From: Mytilus edulis
Lineage: Eukaryota
DNA: 64,000 nt
Assembly: GCF_963676685.1 (NCBI RefSeq)
Contig: NC_092351.1
Coordinates: forward strand, 13,268,001 to 13,332,000
Reading direction: 5' to 3'
Position numbers: made by a program. Positions within the stretch are counted from its first letter, which is position 1, and each line of letters starts with the position of its first letter. Positions 2,515 to 8,500 of this stretch are shown here, piece after piece.

Positions 2515-5500
2515 TTAAAAAAACAAAATAGATTTTTGTTAATGTGTGAAAACTGACCACTGATACAAATTAAATGATACGTTTGTTTGAAATATATGTA
2601 ATTTCACTTGAGTAATAGTTCTTTGTGACAAAGTTGGCCTTAAGTAAAACTTTTTTGATAGCTGGATTAAGTCTCATTGGTTCGTGCTACGAATATGTTT
2701 TGTGTATATTACATTTTAGTTTATTTTAGGGGCTTCGGTGGCTGAGTGGTCTAAGAAGTTCAACTACTGTATACCAAGCCTGTCAACACCACGGTTGGGA
2801 GTTGGAACCCGTAATGTCAACACCGAGGTTTGGAGTTGAAACCCGTACGTGACAGGTGGTTAAATTGTTAATTGACAAGGATTGCCAGTTTTCATGCCAA
2901 AAAATATTTCTGTCACGAAATAGCTAAAAGTGCTGAAAGTGGCGTTAAACACTAATTACATAATAGTTCTTGACAAAAAAAAATGGTCATTATCGTGACA
3001 TATGGACTGCCCACAGGACAGTGGTATTGACTGAGATAGTGATAATGACTGAGTCGAAGGCGAGGTCATTATCGCTGCCATAGTCAATACCACTGTCCTA
3101 CGGGCAGCCCATGTATCACGATAATGACCAGTTTTCAAGAACTATAATGTTTATTTCATTGAAGAACCATGTCTTTGAAAATTCTCATAAACTCAAAATG
3201 TCCAAAACAAACTCGAGTAGTTGTACGATTTCTATGGGAAACGATCGATTTCTATGGGAAAGATTGAAGACAAGTCGTAGTAATACTGTCATTAATTTTA
3301 GTGCAATTTTTCAGAATACAAATACTTAATCAAGTTTCTATAATTTTATTATTTACGAAAACATATGGTAAGCAATTCAACAACTTAAATATAATATTGA
3401 AAACAGGAATATGTTTTATTAAAGTGACATCGTTAAAAACAGGAAAACCACGCCCCATCGGTCATTAACAGAGAAACCACTCCCCAACGGTCATAAACAG
3501 ATGAATGCCCCACCCCAACGGTCATTAATAGACGGAAACCACGCCCCATCGGTCATTATCATGCAAAAGTCCATTAACGACCGGTTTTCTGGTCCGTTTT
3601 GTTCTGTTAATGACCGATGGAATTTATTACTGAAGAACAATGAATGGCATATGGTCCCTTTTTATCCAATAAGAGAAGCTTATTTTGAACCGATATGAAA
3701 TAACAATGAATAAATAAATTTAGTTTATTATACAATAATTGAATGCAGTTAAATCCTCAGGTTAAATGTCGCACTTCGTGATTACTGTACATGTACATGC
3801 TTCTGTTTGTCTATACACATTCATGGGTCGAAAGTACCAAAGCTTATCAGTATATAGCATATACTATAATAATAACTGTTTACTCGCACATTCATGGGTC
3901 GAAAGTACCAACGCTTATCAGTATATAGCCTATACTATAATAATAACTGTTTACTCGCACATTCATGGGTCGAAATAAAGTACCAAGGAATTGTATATTT
4001 TATACAATTCCTTGAAAGAACTAAAGCTGTGATAATATAGTATATTCGCGGTAGAGCGTAATGATTGTAAATAATATACGTCAATGAAACAGTAAAGCAT
4101 CAATACAACATGGCAGGCTCTAAATCATCTCGATGGCGCAATGTAAAGTATAATACTGATAATATATATCAATCTATAGATTAATTTGAAACACCTACCT
4201 TTGATTTTGTATCTGCCATGGCTTCAATTTGTGTTTACGTCAAATGTTAGCATGAAATCCAATATAAAAGCTTGACCTTCAAAAATTGAGGTTTTGAATT
4301 ACTTTTTTAAATGTATCATTGTACTTTAAATGTATTGAAACGAAAAAATAAAATAAACATTTTTATGGTTGACATCATTTAAACTAAAACTTCCGAATAG
4401 CTTCATAAATTATAACTCACATGGTGTTTTTGCAAATTATATTTGTGTTGAAATAAGATGGATTTTCCAAGCATGTTAATAGTATTATAATATGTAACTT
4501 TAAATGACAGAGTGGTTGGACAATAGTCCTTTCATCTGTTTTCAGGAATGGTGAGATAGGTTTGCTGGAGTTTTGGACGAAGCAATTCCGAAGAAAATCC
4601 CTATGATACTGATTATGTCCTAATAATTAAGTCCGCTATTTATACATAAATCAAATGGCAAGCTTAACAACTTAAAAAAAAATATACCCAAAGAAATCGA
4701 AAGGGAAAGCAAAAGGGGAAAATGTATAATTACAAATTATTTTTCTATGTGCTACAATTTATAAAAAAGAAGGATCCGTAATAAAACAGATGGACTGTGT
4801 AAATAAATTTTAACCGCTAGTTTGCTTTAAATAAGAAATAAAACAGCAATATACACCCTTCATTATATACATGTACCTCGTAAACAAACTGTCCCCATCT
4901 GGCAAAACTTAAATTGAATTCAAACATTGGCGGCTCGATTGGCGGGGTAGTTTTCACAGCAGACATACAGTAAGAAAGTCAAACTCGATAAATTAAAAAG
5001 AAGACTTTGGAGTGAATTACAAGAATATAAAATCTTTTGAAATATGACTACTGTTTCCTTGACTCCCAGTTTACCAAATATTTTGAGCTCTATGGTGTTC
5101 GCCCCTTCCTTCCGCCCCCTCTTTAATGAATTTTAGGGATAGTTAAATTTTAAATTGAATATATAATGCATTTATTTACAAAACGTTTTGTGCTCTTTGA
5201 AATTAAAAAAAATCTAACGATACGTTTAATTAAACCATAGCAGAGTCTCGATCTATTATACATGTTATAAAAGTGTGCATGTATATTAATTTGTAAATAG
5301 TTTTGCTACATTAATCATGTTAAAATTCGACAAAGGCTTGAATACGCATCTTTTTTACTTTTACATCAACTAAAATTTATAAAATACTTAACTGACCTCT
5401 TTAAGAATATGCAAAGTCAACTGCAATTATATATATAATTTATACTGTGTATACGCTATCCGTACCAGCAATTTGTGTGTACTTACCGGTAAAGAGAGCA

Positions 5501-8500
5501 CTTAAGAGGGTGTTCATGTTCCAAAACGTTGGAACCAATCAGATTATTATTTACTTTATAAGCGTTGGTTTGATTCGTTGGGGGTGTGTCTTATAAATGT
5601 ATGACGAGTAGCCTCTGTATGAAGCATTGATCTCCTATGTGAAGGCATAGAAAGTGTACTATGGCGACCCGATGGCGGTAACAGAGAACAACAAAAACTA
5701 TTTTGTAGCTTAATGCATGCAATACAACCTATCTGTCTGGTATTGGTAATACTTCTTTTTACCCATTCATGTAAAACATACTCTTTTTTGTCAAATAACA
5801 CTTGAAATTAAATGAAGTTGCGGTGCATCGAAGGATCCAGCCTTCGGGGGACCGACTCCTGTCGTCCTGGTCGAAAATCGTCAAATTATTTTGATTGCTA
5901 CCGAAAGAATATTCTTGTCATCTGTTTCACTAATAATATCTTAGAAATTAGGTGACTTACATGATGTCATTATACTCCTTCAAATGTCTTTAAATTTAAA
6001 TGTCTTCTTATTTAAATTATTCAAAGGCCTTCAAATGCGGAACTAAATTCAATGAAATATTATGGGGGAGGGGTATCCAACCAGGTATCGGGATCGTTTG
6101 CCCTAGGTTCATTGCACGGAGTTTCTTCTCCCTGATACAGAGATCTCCATGGATGAAAATTGAACGATGGAGGAACTTTCACAATCATAAAATGTATCTA
6201 CACCGTACAGTGTAACGCGATCGAAAGTATTTCATCCCTCCATATAAGGATAGGTGAACATGCTAATTCATTGCTTATTTAAATTATATTTATTTGAATT
6301 TTCATTATAAATACTATATATAGAAGTACATGTATATATTTTTTCAATAATTGCCGTTTGTAACCCTTCAAAGGCCAAGCCCTCATGCCCCCTCCATTTA
6401 CCTTAGTCGAGCATGACCAATAGCTATCACGAAGGTCCCCATGTAGTTTTCTTGCTACTTTCGGTAATTGTTAAAAATCATGTGGAGCTTATTTTTTACG
6501 GACACTCAAATTCAGAAGTCATGAACCCATTACCGGTATGGCTGGTTTGCAGCAACGACAAAACGAGTAGTACGGGTAAAAGGGTCCGGTTATGTAAAAG
6601 GTTAAAAAGATTTGTAAAGCAAACGTTGTCAAATGAAAAGGTTTTTAATTACTTTATCTAGCAAATCCATGCTATGCAACATGCATCTTTCGAGTTTAAA
6701 TAGAAACCGGAAATGCGGATATTTCAATTTGATTGTAAACTACAAAATGAATTTGGAACTACGATACAATATTTCTTTGCAGGAAATTAAAGGGGCACTA
6801 GCTACGAGATATATAAAAAATCTAAAGTTTGATTTTTTTGGTTCAATCAATAATGAAAGTGAAATAGTGAAATAACAATTTGCTTTTTGCAGCCAAAAAG
6901 GTTAAATTTTGTCAAATTACGCTAAGAAACATTGATAATTAGTAATTCACTTGCAAGTGAATGAGTCGACCTCTTTTTAATCCGTATTCATGTGAACTTC
7001 AATTTAACCCCATGCTAGAGATTGACAACTAATGCATTGTACGTGTACTGGTTATTTAAAGAAAAAGAATGTCAACAATAAAAGTGAAACTACGGTAAAT
7101 CATTTGATTATTAATTCGATGCACATAAAATCATTCATATACGGTTAAAAGCAATGAGAACCATCTATTTTTAATCTATAAAATAAAATCAAACACACCT
7201 ATAAAAATCTAATTGCACGTGTTGTTTTAATCTTTTCATATCTTTATTTATGTTTACATCGCTTATATGGTCATATTAGGTCAAATCGATAGTTAATTAG
7301 ATGGCGTCTGGACTAAAATACACACGAAACGAATCTAAATATTATCTACCCCATGCTCTGTTAACTGTTTATTTTAGACTTTTGATAGTTTGGATAAATG
7401 TTTTACATAGTTATAAATCAAATATGAGAATTTGAGTCAAATCGGTGACCATGAATTTGACAGCTAATGCCCCTTTAAAAGTTTTTACTTTTTAACTTTT
7501 AAAGTAATTCTATATTATCGTTACAATACCGCAGTACTCGAGTTATTTGCAATGAAATAATAATTACTGTTTTACGTCTTATTTTGTACTTCTTAAAAAG
7601 GGGGATGCTGATAGCGTAACTAAGTCAAAATAAAAGCATGTGATAGTCCGTTCGCCCTATTTTCATGTATGATATGTATATGATACATTAATGAACGAGA
7701 TATATATATTTTATATCCATTAAAATTAAATACAGAATACTTGCTAAATTTATATAAATTAAATAAAATTCTTGGCTGCATTGTTACACTTTAATTTATA
7801 ATTAAATTCTGAGAAACTTATTTCCTAGTAAGGTAATTGCATACAGATACAAACTTAGTCATCAATGAATTGTCATGTCATGGTTTCTTTTATACACATT
7901 AAACATGCCACCAAGGACCTATACATACAATTTATGTTATTAACACATCATGGACCATAATAAAACAGAAGACCTATGTAGCTATTATCAACACATCATG
8001 GGCTCTTAAACTACAATGAAACAGAAGACCATGGATCAATTAGACACACCATAATCTCTTTTATACATATAACCCATGAGACCATGGACTTATAATTAAC
8101 ACATCTATTAACACATGACACCATAGACATAATTCATGTTATTAACACATCATGGACTCTTATACCACAATAAAGATAGACCCTGGACCAATTAGACTCA
8201 AAAACATGCCATGGTCTCATATTACGCATATTACACATGAGACCAAGGACCTATTCATGTACATGCTATATATCTGTCATAAGCATATCATTTAAACCAC
8301 AAATAAACATAAGATCCTGGACCACACAAAACTGTAAATGGCATGCCATGGTCTCATTAATGCATATTACACGTGAGACCTTGGACCTAAACATATCTCG
8401 GACTTTTAAACCACAAAGAAACATGAGACTAAGGACCAAATAGACAGTAAATAACATGCTATGGTCTCATTAATACATATTACACATGAGACCATGGACC

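What the first reader, a model, noticed from the sequence alone, without database searches (positions are those of the whole stretch)
5481..5560. Duplication breakpoint lies in the putative ADH5 5'UTR exon: possible capture of a host promoter by the transposon gene
Seen: a minus-strand TATAAA (5560-5555) and a strong donor (5486) flank the breakpoint at 5505/5506, upstream of the ADH exons. In copy 2 the same promoter-like segment (48203-48257) points into the right TIR, and the ATG of the zinc-finger gene at 47866 is only 337 bp downstream on the same strand. Inference: the rearrangement leaves native ADH intact but creates an ADH-promoter/transposon fusion unit. It also identifies copy 1 as the native locus.
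Basis: inference. Interest (0 to 1): 0.7.

Follow-up and report, generated by a model that had tools for sequence, protein, structure and literature searches.

The report
Transposon-bounded duplication beside mussel ADH5
A very recent large duplication in a mussel genome begins exactly at the tip of a decayed transposon, about 1.3 kb upstream of an alcohol dehydrogenase gene, but sequence alone cannot show that this hands the gene's promoter to the transposon.

Summary
The window is Mytilus (mussel) DNA, not human. 5506-21303 equals 48203-64000 at 15,798 of 15,798 bases. Copy 2 starts at the base after the last base of a 27-nt terminal inverted repeat (38662-38688 / 48176-48202). The minus-strand TATAAA, GTAAGT donor and ATG 47866 are all at the stated places.

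The element (9,541 bp) is an internally deleted remnant. It keeps the N-terminal half of a RecQ-like helicase (+) and the N-terminal 247 aa of a DUF6589-family protein (-, the 'zinc-finger gene'). It has no matching target-site duplication.

Best reading: a direct duplication made by the transposon end attacking a site 1,286 nt upstream of the class III ADH start codon, as in alternative transposition in maize.

The promoter-capture idea is neither shown nor excluded. TATAAA occurs every ~250 bp and the UTR exon is unverified. CCAATCAG, TATAAA and ATGGCGG fit a + strand promoter at least as well. A read-in transcript would carry ~359 nt with 9 upstream ATGs and encode a truncated protein.

An N run and the window's end leave the tandem layout unproven.

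The parts
5481..5487 (-). GGTAAGT donor-like motif (G of GT at 5486). Proposed end of an ADH 5'UTR exon. It lies outside the duplication, so copy 2 lacks it.
   Evidence: 6 matches in the window, 6.6 expected
5503..5506 (.). Breakpoint 5505/5506 of copy 1, the ancestral target site. TTAA at 5502-5505. 'TA' at 5503-5504 is shared with 48200-48201, and 5505 is the single mismatch.
5555..5560 (-). Minus-strand TATAAA (copy at 48252-48257).
   Evidence: chance-level motif (257 in 64 kb)
5535..5678 (+). Promoter-like module reading rightwards: CCAATCAG 5535-5542, TATAAA 5592-5597, ATG 5661, ATGGCGG 5672-5678 followed by GT at 5678-5679. No downstream gene was found.
4199..4276 (-). ADH exon carrying the start codon (ATG 4219-4217, MADTKSK, donor GT at 4198-4197). 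4276 is the exon start only if the AAG acceptor at 4279-4277 is used.
2383..2484 (-). Second ADH coding exon (34 aa). Best solved-structure match is human class III ADH, residues 5-37.
   Evidence: E 1.8e-11
5506..21303 (.). Copy 1 of the duplicated DNA, the part visible in both copies. Repeat-rich, with no recognisable protein family.
48203..64000 (.). Copy 2, identical to copy 1 at 15,798 of 15,798 bases. It runs off the window.
37005..37194 (.). Run of 190 N inside the repeat unit, left untouched. The tandem layout depends on the join across it.
38662..48202 (.). 9,541-bp element bounded by 27-nt inverted repeats. An internal-deletion derivative with no matching target-site duplication (left flank ends CCGCAATA, right flank begins GAGGGTGT).
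38662..38688 (+). Left terminal inverted repeat.
48176..48202 (-). Right terminal inverted repeat (26 of 27 complementary to the left one). Its last base abuts copy 2.
38770..42940 (+). RecQ-like helicase gene, N-terminal (DEAD) half only. Exons are about 38770-39051, 40992-41165 and 42836-42913/42940. Own compact promoter-like stretch at 38689-38745 (GATTGG, ATGGCGG, TATATAAGG).
43107..47866 (-). The 'zinc-finger gene', an annotated 247-aa M. edulis protein. Exons: 47866-47673, 46688-46611, 46168-46109, 45027-44962, 44153-44085, 43380-43107. It is the N-terminal remnant of a DUF6589-family protein.

Best explanation
The 80-bp stretch is the ancestral target site of a transposon-end-mediated rearrangement in a Mytilus genome.

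A 9.5-kb TIR-bounded element (38662-48202) is itself an internally deleted, non-autonomous copy. It keeps only the front halves of two convergent genes, a RecQ-like helicase and a DUF6589-family protein. Its right terminus was joined to DNA 1,286 nt upstream of the class III ADH start codon. The result is a direct duplication: ADH | B-C | element | B... The second copy begins at the first base after the element's last base.

The most likely mechanism is alternative transposition. The element's end, cut by a transposase supplied in trans, inserted into the sister chromatid upstream of its own position. This duplicated everything between the target and the element.

The target lies in a short stretch with promoter-like motifs. 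That fits what I recall of many DNA transposons preferring gene 5' regions. The orientation of that promoter is not settled: it may serve ADH, an unknown rightward transcript, or both.

Shown: the identity of the copies, the base-exact coincidence with the terminus, the missing target-site duplication, and the truncated gene content. Inferred: the mechanism, the tandem layout beyond the window, and any promoter activity.
For: - Copies are identical at 15,798 of 15,798 bases, and homology stops exactly at 48202/48203.
- 48202 is the last base of a 27-nt inverted repeat, 26 of 27 complementary. The flanking bases are not complementary. The 23-nt core occurs only at these 2 places with up to 3 mismatches, against 0 expected.
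- There is no matching target-site duplication: CCGCAATA on the left, GAGGGTGT on the right.
- No element or TIR sits at the copy-1 boundary.
- These are the signatures listed for transposition-generated tandem duplications in maize: endpoints coincide precisely with the transposon termini, the middle element has only one flank of the duplication, and there is no element at the outer breakpoint, which argues against NAHR (PMC3744419: abstract, passages and Discussion read).
- Mobile-element nature: helicase relatives form a multi-copy Mytilus family, with 12 Mytilus proteins among the 28 hits. DUF6589 relatives are 5 Mytilus proteins of 542-727 aa. Two RecQ/DUF6589 pairs share a contig length (137,857 and 228,124), suggesting the two genes recur together.
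- All relatives' matches stop at 42913-42940 and at 43113, which is what an internal deletion gives.
Against: - Only one end of the duplication is visible, because copy 2 runs off the window at 64000.
- A 190-N run at 37005-37194 lies inside the unit, so the tandem arrangement rests on a join I cannot check.
- Zero differences in 15.8 kb, including across satellite arrays, is also what an assembly duplication would give.
- No transposase domain was found in the element (1 of 99 ORFs passes a Pfam cut-off, and that is DEAD).
- DUF6589 has no known function: no solved relative, and the fold failed at pLDDT 32.4.
- The element's superfamily, its true termini (27-nt CTACAC... or 24-nt CACTT...) and its target-site duplication length are unknown, because no other DNA copy could be examined.
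- The maize models use two nearby elements, and only one is visible here.
Confidence: 0.6

Rival explanations
1. First reader's reading. The ADH gene has a non-coding first exon (~5528-5487) driven by the TATAAA at 5560-5555. The breakpoint cuts that exon, so copy 2 carries a live ADH promoter and TSS that transcribes through the right TIR into the zinc-finger gene (an ADH-promoter/transposon fusion unit).
For: - Motifs and geometry are as stated.
- The breakpoint falling inside a TATAAA-to-GTAAGT unit is unusual: 0.025% of positions on this strand. About 1% of positions lie inside any of the 7 such units on either strand, by my own estimate from their number and span.
- CpG density at 5501-5700 is 7 per 200 nt, in the top 10.9% of windows, against 3 at 4201-4400 next to the ADH ATG.
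- AAG acceptors are used here, in 1 of 6 confirmed acceptors.
- Copy 2 keeps at least 15.8 kb of upstream DNA.
- The downstream gene is a real annotated model starting at 47866.
- The M. trossulus relative has a different 5' exon spliced into this first exon, so upstream starts may occur in this family.
Against: - No transcript evidence.
- TATAAA is at chance level, and so is the TATA-to-donor unit.
- The CCAAT box would sit at about -10 from the proposed TSS, which is not its usual place as I recall it. It sits about 57 nt before the + strand TATAAA, and all ATGGCGG sites are on the + strand.
- The putative exon holds an ATG at 5517.
- Copy 2 lacks the donor at 5486. The leader to 47866 would be about 359 nt, 24% GC within the element, with 9 upstream ATGs.
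- The encoded protein is a 247-aa remnant without the DUF6589 domain.
Confidence: 0.2
2. Assembly or scaffolding artefact. The element|B junction is real in one haplotype or elsewhere in the genome, but the 42.7-kb tandem layout was produced by joining two contigs across the N run, or by traversing a graph loop twice. The genome then holds one copy, or a non-tandem rearrangement.
For: - A 190-N run lies inside the unit, next to a 500-bp-period repeat array at 34610-36602.
- There are 0 differences in 15,798 bases, including satellite arrays.
- The maize paper's Discussion notes that recent, nearly identical duplications are poorly represented in assemblies.
Against: - The element|B junction lies in continuous sequence, 37195-64000.
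- The element's left flank (37195-38661) has no similarity to the ADH side (1-5505) in the self-BLAST, so this is not a simple insertion allele of the copy-1 site.
- From my own knowledge, two haplotypes of a mussel would be expected to differ over 15.8 kb.
Confidence: 0.2
3. The promoter-like stretch at 5535-5680 belongs to an unknown rightward (+ strand) transcript inside the duplicated DNA. The duplication then truncates that promoter about 120 nt upstream of its start in copy 2, and has nothing to do with ADH transcription.
For: - The order CCAATCAG (5535), then TATAAA (5592) 57 nt later, then ATGGCGG (5672) is the same order of motifs as the helicase gene's own promoter-like stretch at the element's left end: GATTGG 38689, ATGGCGG 38719, TATATAAGG 38737, ATG/ATGGCGG 38770.
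- ATGGCGG has 4 matches, all on the + strand and all in these two modules, against 1.32 expected. 7 of 100 shuffles reach 4.
Against: - No gene was found downstream. 0 of 124 ORFs of 42 aa or more (both strands) and 0 of 83 + strand ORFs of 27-41 aa pass a Pfam cut-off.
- There are 0 Rfam families and 0 tRNAs.
- The two modules share no alignable sequence.
- Two of the four ATGGCGG sites are copies of each other.
Confidence: 0.3
4. Unequal crossing-over (NAHR) between two copies of the element, one formerly at 5505/5506, followed by excision of the outer copy. Alternatively, the 15.8-kb+ segment is itself a mobile unit inserted twice.
For: NAHR between dispersed repeats is the prevailing model for tandem duplications, according to the abstract of PMC3744419.
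Against: - No element or TIR remnant sits at 5505/5506.
- NAHR predicts an element at the outer breakpoint too.
- A giant mobile segment landing exactly at the last base of another element's TIR would be a coincidence.
- 5506 onwards shows no terminal repeat partner in the window.
Confidence: 0.05

Closest known systems
Transposition-generated tandem direct duplications by alternative transposition of maize Ac/Ds (Zhang, Zuo and Peterson 2013, PMC3744419; abstract, passages and Discussion read)
   Same: The duplication endpoint coincides exactly with a transposon terminus. The element sits between the two copies. That element lacks a matching target-site duplication. No element sits at the outer breakpoint.
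   Different: A mollusc, and an element of unknown superfamily with no hAT features tested. Only one element is visible, whereas the maize model uses two nearby elements. The reciprocal deletion and the shared target-site duplication cannot be examined. The far end of the duplication is outside the window.
Drosophila simulans Paris sex-ratio segmental duplication with Hosim1 (hAT) at the junction (PMC3276153; abstract and passages read)
   Same: A natural, very young tandem duplication in an animal, with near-identical copies, a class II element between the duplicated segments, 5'-truncated gene copies at the junction, and a discussion of possible chimeric transcripts.
   Different: There the junction holds several Hosim1 copies alternating with 687-bp repeats, and the authors favour duplication-dependent strand annealing. 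Here a single element abuts copy 2 directly.
P-element hybrid element insertion (named in the Introduction of PMC3744419; mechanism otherwise recalled, original papers not read)
   Same: The two ends of one element on sister chromatids act together and insert nearby, giving flanking duplications and deletions bounded by the element.
   Different: Not tested here. The transposase family is unknown, and no reciprocal product is available.
Kolobok lineages that carry a RecQ helicase (KolobokH; Kolobok-1_CCri, with RecQ on the complementary strand; PMC9587614, passages read)
   Same: A TIR element carrying a RecQ-like helicase gene as a second gene, in one case on the opposite strand.
   Different: According to that paper, Kolobok makes TTAA target-site duplications and has 5'-RR...YY-3' termini. 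This element starts CTACAC and has no TTAA at either flank. Its partner protein is DUF6589, not a recognised Kolobok transposase.

Membership tests
Transposon-end-mediated tandem direct duplication (alternative transposition) | The duplication endpoint coincides exactly with a transposon terminus. | tested here: met
   Identity begins at 48203, and 48202 is the last base of the 27-nt TIR. If the TIR is read as 24 nt (CACTT...), the endpoint is 3 nt away with 1 mismatch.
Transposon-end-mediated tandem direct duplication (alternative transposition) | The element between the copies lacks a matching target-site duplication. | tested here: met
   The left flank ends CCGCAATA and the right flank begins GAGGGTGT.
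Transposon-end-mediated tandem direct duplication (alternative transposition) | No element at the outer breakpoint (this excludes simple NAHR). | tested here: met
   The TIR core is found only at 38662 and 48180-48202, and 5505/5506 is element-free. The absence of an excision footprint cannot be judged without an empty-site allele.
Transposon-end-mediated tandem direct duplication (alternative transposition) | Two full tandem copies, the second ending at the element's original flank or at a second element. | not testable with these tools
   Copy 2 runs off the window at 64000, and the predicted end is at 81358. An N run lies at 37005-37194. No eukaryotic DNA collection was open.
Transposon-end-mediated tandem direct duplication (alternative transposition) | A reciprocal deletion product sharing the target-site duplication. 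| not testable with these tools
   This needs population or pedigree data.
TIR (class II) DNA transposon | Terminal inverted repeats. | tested here: met
   27 nt, 26 of 27 complementary, and unique in the window.
TIR (class II) DNA transposon | Encodes a recognisable transposase. | tested here: not met
   Of 99 ORFs, only DEAD passes a Pfam cut-off. The copy is internally deleted. DUF6589 in full-length relatives has unknown function.
TIR (class II) DNA transposon | Multiple copies with the same termini and target-site duplications. | tested here: inconclusive
   Both encoded proteins have many Mytilus relatives, but no other DNA copy could be fetched.
Kolobok / piggyBac-type TTAA-targeting elements | TTAA target-site duplication flanking the termini (and 5'-RR...YY-3' termini for Kolobok). 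| tested here: not met
   A TTAA lies at 5502-5505 in copy 1, but neither flank of the element has TTAA, and the termini are CT...AG. The definition is from PMC9587614.
Class III alcohol dehydrogenase (ADH5 / GSNOR) | Sequence of the N-terminal coding exon. | tested here: met
   The 34-aa exon 2484-2383 best matches human class III ADH, residues 5-37, at E 1.8e-11. Other ADH classes score close behind.
Class III alcohol dehydrogenase (ADH5 / GSNOR) | Complete catalytic and cofactor domains. | tested here: inconclusive
   No further ADH exon was found among 37 minus-strand ORFs in 1-2514. The gene evidently continues beyond the window's left edge.
Promoter capture / chimeric transcription unit | A mapped host TSS upstream of the junction, with transcripts crossing it. 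| not testable with these tools
   No RNA data. Only motifs are available.
Promoter capture / chimeric transcription unit | A downstream gene on the same strand with an intact reading frame. | tested here: inconclusive
   Same strand and an open 247-aa model. But the model is a remnant lacking DUF6589, and it sits behind 9 upstream ATGs.
RecQ-family helicase | DEAD/ATP-binding domain plus Helicase_C domain. | tested here: not met
   The DEAD exon is present (32 bits against a cut-off of 26). Helicase_C is present in the relative P0006 but absent from the window.

The most novel reading that the evidence does not exclude
A zero-divergence duplication with a 42.7-kb period in Mytilus edulis was made by alternative transposition of a non-autonomous member of an undescribed TIR element family, whose two genes are a RecQ-like helicase and a DUF6589 protein acting as the transposase. 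The event hit a bidirectional promoter shared by the housekeeping ADH5 gene. It thereby created a second, ADH-driven transcription start that reads into the element. This would be a naturally caught, first-generation case of promoter capture and segmental duplication by a DNA transposon in a mollusc.
Probability: 0.1. Interest if true: 0.6.

Novelty: new member of a known kind. Interest (0 to 1): 0.35.

Why it matters
Mussel genomes are known for extensive structural variation; I recall this and did not read the literature on it here. A duplication whose boundary is a transposon's last base points to a concrete mechanism, transposon-end attack on the sister chromatid, which has so far been documented mainly in maize and Drosophila. 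If confirmed by long reads, it would be a clean and very young example in a mollusc. It would also mark the RecQ/DUF6589 element family as recently active. The promoter-capture idea would matter only if transcripts exist, and even then the product is a truncated protein.

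Tried and rejected
- Kolobok/piggyBac-type TTAA insertion: rejected. There is no TTAA at either flank of the element, and the termini are wrong.
- Simple insertion allele of the element at 5505/5506: rejected. The element's left flank is unrelated to 1-5505.
- Helitron-like ends at 5506: none seen by eye. The Helitron end motifs are recalled, not looked up.
- Small-RNA or tRNA gene served by the + strand module: 0 Rfam families and 0 tRNAs.
- A + strand protein gene downstream of 5600: none found. 0 of 124 ORFs and 0 of 83 ORFs pass a Pfam cut-off.
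- Homology between the promoter-like module at 5506-5700 and the element's left end: none alignable.
- Relation of the 462-aa ORF (25630-27015) to the element's protein: none.
- Function of DUF6589:
  - Pfam gives no other domain.
  - No solved relative.
  - One paper mentions the name (search listing only).
  - The AlphaFold model from a 5-sequence alignment had mean pLDDT 32.4 with 0 of 542 residues at 50 or above, so no fold search was run.
- Literature searches for a RecQ-bearing Mytilus transposon or a KDZ/RecQ link gave no description of this element. A search for Mytilus segmental-duplication work gave nothing relevant.
- My first count that all 6 confirmed acceptors were YAG was wrong. 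Exact mapping gives 5 YAG and 1 AAG.
- Exons were searched one at a time. The joined (spliced) search step was left out.

Full report
**What the window is.** The DNA is about 30% G+C. The proteins it encodes match annotated Mytilus edulis proteins at 100% identity over the exons searched. I take it for blue-mussel sequence, not human. It holds one run of 190 N (37005-37194), which I left untouched.

**The observation.**
- Self-comparison shows 5503-21303 = 48200-64000 with one mismatch.
- Base by base, 5506-21303 and 48203-64000 are identical at 15,798 of 15,798 positions. The mismatch is 5505 against 48202. Left of it only 'TA' is shared. So the breakpoint 5505/5506 is right, and the copy offset is 42,697 nt.
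- The minus-strand TATAAA (5560-5555; copy at 48257-48252), the minus-strand G|GTAAGT (5486) and the ATG at 47866, 337 nt below 48203 on the same strand, are all present.

**What abuts copy 2.**
- 48176-48202 is the right arm of a 27-nt inverted repeat whose left arm is 38662-38688, 26 of 27 complementary. The next bases outward are not complementary.
- The 23-nt core has only these two matches at up to 3 mismatches, against none expected.
- The element is therefore 38662-48202 (9,541 bp), and copy 2 begins at the base after its last base.
- Its flanks (CCGCAATA on the left, GAGGGTGT on the right) are not a target-site duplication.
- One ambiguity remains. If the true terminus is CACTT... (24 nt), the element ends at 48199, and the duplication starts at 5503 with one substitution. 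The 27-nt reading needs fewer coincidences.

**What the element carries.**
- Of 99 ORFs of 38 aa or more in 38500-48300, one passes a Pfam cut-off: a DEAD helicase exon at 38767-39072.
- Searched alone, that exon finds a multi-copy Mytilus RecQ-like family. The 28 hits include 12 Mytilus proteins and the local 199-aa model.
- Full relatives of 417-433 aa have DEAD plus Helicase_C. Only their first ~171-190 residues map to the window, ending at 42913-42940.
- The first exon of the 'zinc-finger gene', searched alone, is 100% identical to a 247-aa M. edulis 'uncharacterized protein'. That protein maps to six minus-strand exons: 47866-47673, 46688-46611, 46168-46109, 45027-44962, 44153-44085 and 43380-43107.
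- Its residues 89-245 align with residues 8-166 of a 688-aa M. coruscus protein. The DUF6589 domain of that protein lies further on.
- All five full-length DUF6589 relatives (542-727 aa) either stop matching at 43113 or do not match at all.
- So the element is an internal-deletion derivative. It keeps the 5' halves of two convergent genes and lacks both Helicase_C and DUF6589.
- Two RecQ/DUF6589 protein pairs share a contig length, which hints that the two genes travel together.
- What DUF6589 does stays unknown. The fold attempt failed at pLDDT 32.4. An atlas look-up finds DUF6589 clusters in molluscs, cnidarians and fungi.

**The ADH side.**
- On the minus strand, ATG 4219-4217 opens a 7-codon exon with its donor after 4199.
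- Exon 2484-2383 follows. Its best solved-structure match is human class III ADH, residues 5-37, at E 1.8e-11.
- No further ADH exon lies in the window.
- The breakpoint is 1,286 nt upstream of the ATG, so the coding exons seen here are untouched.

**Is the breakpoint in an ADH 5'UTR exon?** This cannot be decided from sequence.

Against:
- TATAAA occurs 257 times in 64 kb.
- GGTAAGT occurs 6 times against 6.6 expected.
- TATAAA-to-GTAAGT units occur 7 times in 48.2 kb against a shuffle mean of 4.1, and 26 of 200 shuffles reach 7. One of the 7 is an internal donor of the element's gene.
- The acceptor at 4279-4277 is AAG.
- The putative exon contains an ATG at 5517.

For:
- The breakpoint lying between such a pair holds for 0.025% of positions, though this is a post hoc figure.
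- AAG acceptors are in use here, in 1 of 6 confirmed acceptors.
- CpG density at 5501-5700 is in the top 10.9% of windows, while 4201-4400 is average.

A further point cuts either way. CCAATCAG (5535; the only site besides its duplicate), a + strand TATAAA 57 nt later (5592) and ATGGCGG (5672) are ordered like a rightward promoter. The same motif order precedes the helicase ATG at the element's left end. No rightward gene could be found. A bidirectional promoter would reconcile both readings. I put the UTR exon at roughly one in three.

Copy 2 keeps the upstream DNA and about 22 nt of the putative exon but loses the donor. An RNA starting near 48225 would run about 359 nt, through DNA that is 24% G+C within the element, past 9 upstream ATGs before reaching ATG 47866. 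It would then encode a protein without its main domain. A fusion transcript is possible. A useful product is unlikely.

**Mechanism.** The structure is ADH | B-C | element | B... It has a base-exact junction at the element's terminus, no matching target-site duplication, and no element at the outer breakpoint. This is the signature described for tandem duplications made by alternative transposition of maize Ac/Ds, where NAHR is excluded by the same argument (PMC3744419). A young animal case with a hAT element at the junction exists in D. simulans (PMC3276153). Because the element is non-autonomous, transposase must have come from another copy. The CpG-rich left flank of the element (11 CpG per 200 nt) and the promoter-like target fit a preference for gene 5' regions. 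That is inference, and the preference itself is recalled.

**Limits.**
- Copy 2 leaves the window after 15.8 kb.
- The N run lies inside the unit.
- The copies are identical even across satellite arrays. An assembly or scaffolding artefact therefore stays a live rival.
- No RNA data and no eukaryotic DNA collection were available, so the element's other copies, its superfamily and the far end of the duplication stayed unchecked.
- Exons were searched one by one, and the joined spliced-model step was left out.
- Supplementary files of the papers were not consulted. They are unlikely to bear on this locus.

Noticed in passing
window 25630-27015 (-): Open frame of 462 aa (stop to stop) with a CxC...CxH cysteine/histidine pattern and no Pfam match. 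The atlas look-up gives a sub-threshold lead (0.89) to the CxC4 cysteine cluster of KDZ (Kyakuja/Dileera/Zisupton) transposases. It may be part of a second, unrelated transposon inside the duplicated unit. It is unrelated to the element's protein.
   Followed up: partly
window 20804-22851 (copy at 63501-63975...): Satellite array with a 52-nt unit, about 39 copies at 70-80% match. It lies within the repeat unit and spans 21303, where the part visible in both copies ends because the window ends.
   Followed up: no
window 34610-36602, 18526-19206, 27195-27592, 36107-36808: Repeat with a period of about 500 bp, in three to four tandem copies directly left of the N run. Related copies at 80-87% identity lie elsewhere in the unit, one of them inverted. 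This is probably a dispersed element, and a likely cause of the break in the assembly.
   Followed up: no
window 38351-38661: The element's left flank is among the most CpG-dense DNA in the window: 11 CpG per 200 nt, at the 99th percentile. It may be another promoter-like insertion site.
   Followed up: no
window 39703-39817 and 40635-40780: Two near-perfect hairpin palindromes inside the helicase gene's first intron: 48-nt arms at 98% with a 19-nt loop, and 73-nt arms at 92% with no loop. They look like MITE-type insertions.
   Followed up: no
protein P0004 (M. trossulus) against window 47767-47633: The M. trossulus relative of the element's gene has a different 46-residue N-terminus. It joins the window's first exon only from about residue 47, and its own first part maps nowhere in the window. 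In that species an upstream exon appears to splice into this gene.
   Followed up: partly
window 16827-17138 (+): 104-aa ORF with weak PHD / VAL1-type zinc-finger similarity (E 0.0045-0.0048, 17.3 bits, below the cut-offs).
   Followed up: no
window 19272-19546 (copy at 61969-62243): Perfect two-copy tandem repeat of 137 nt at 100% match, a sign of very recent local duplication.
   Followed up: no
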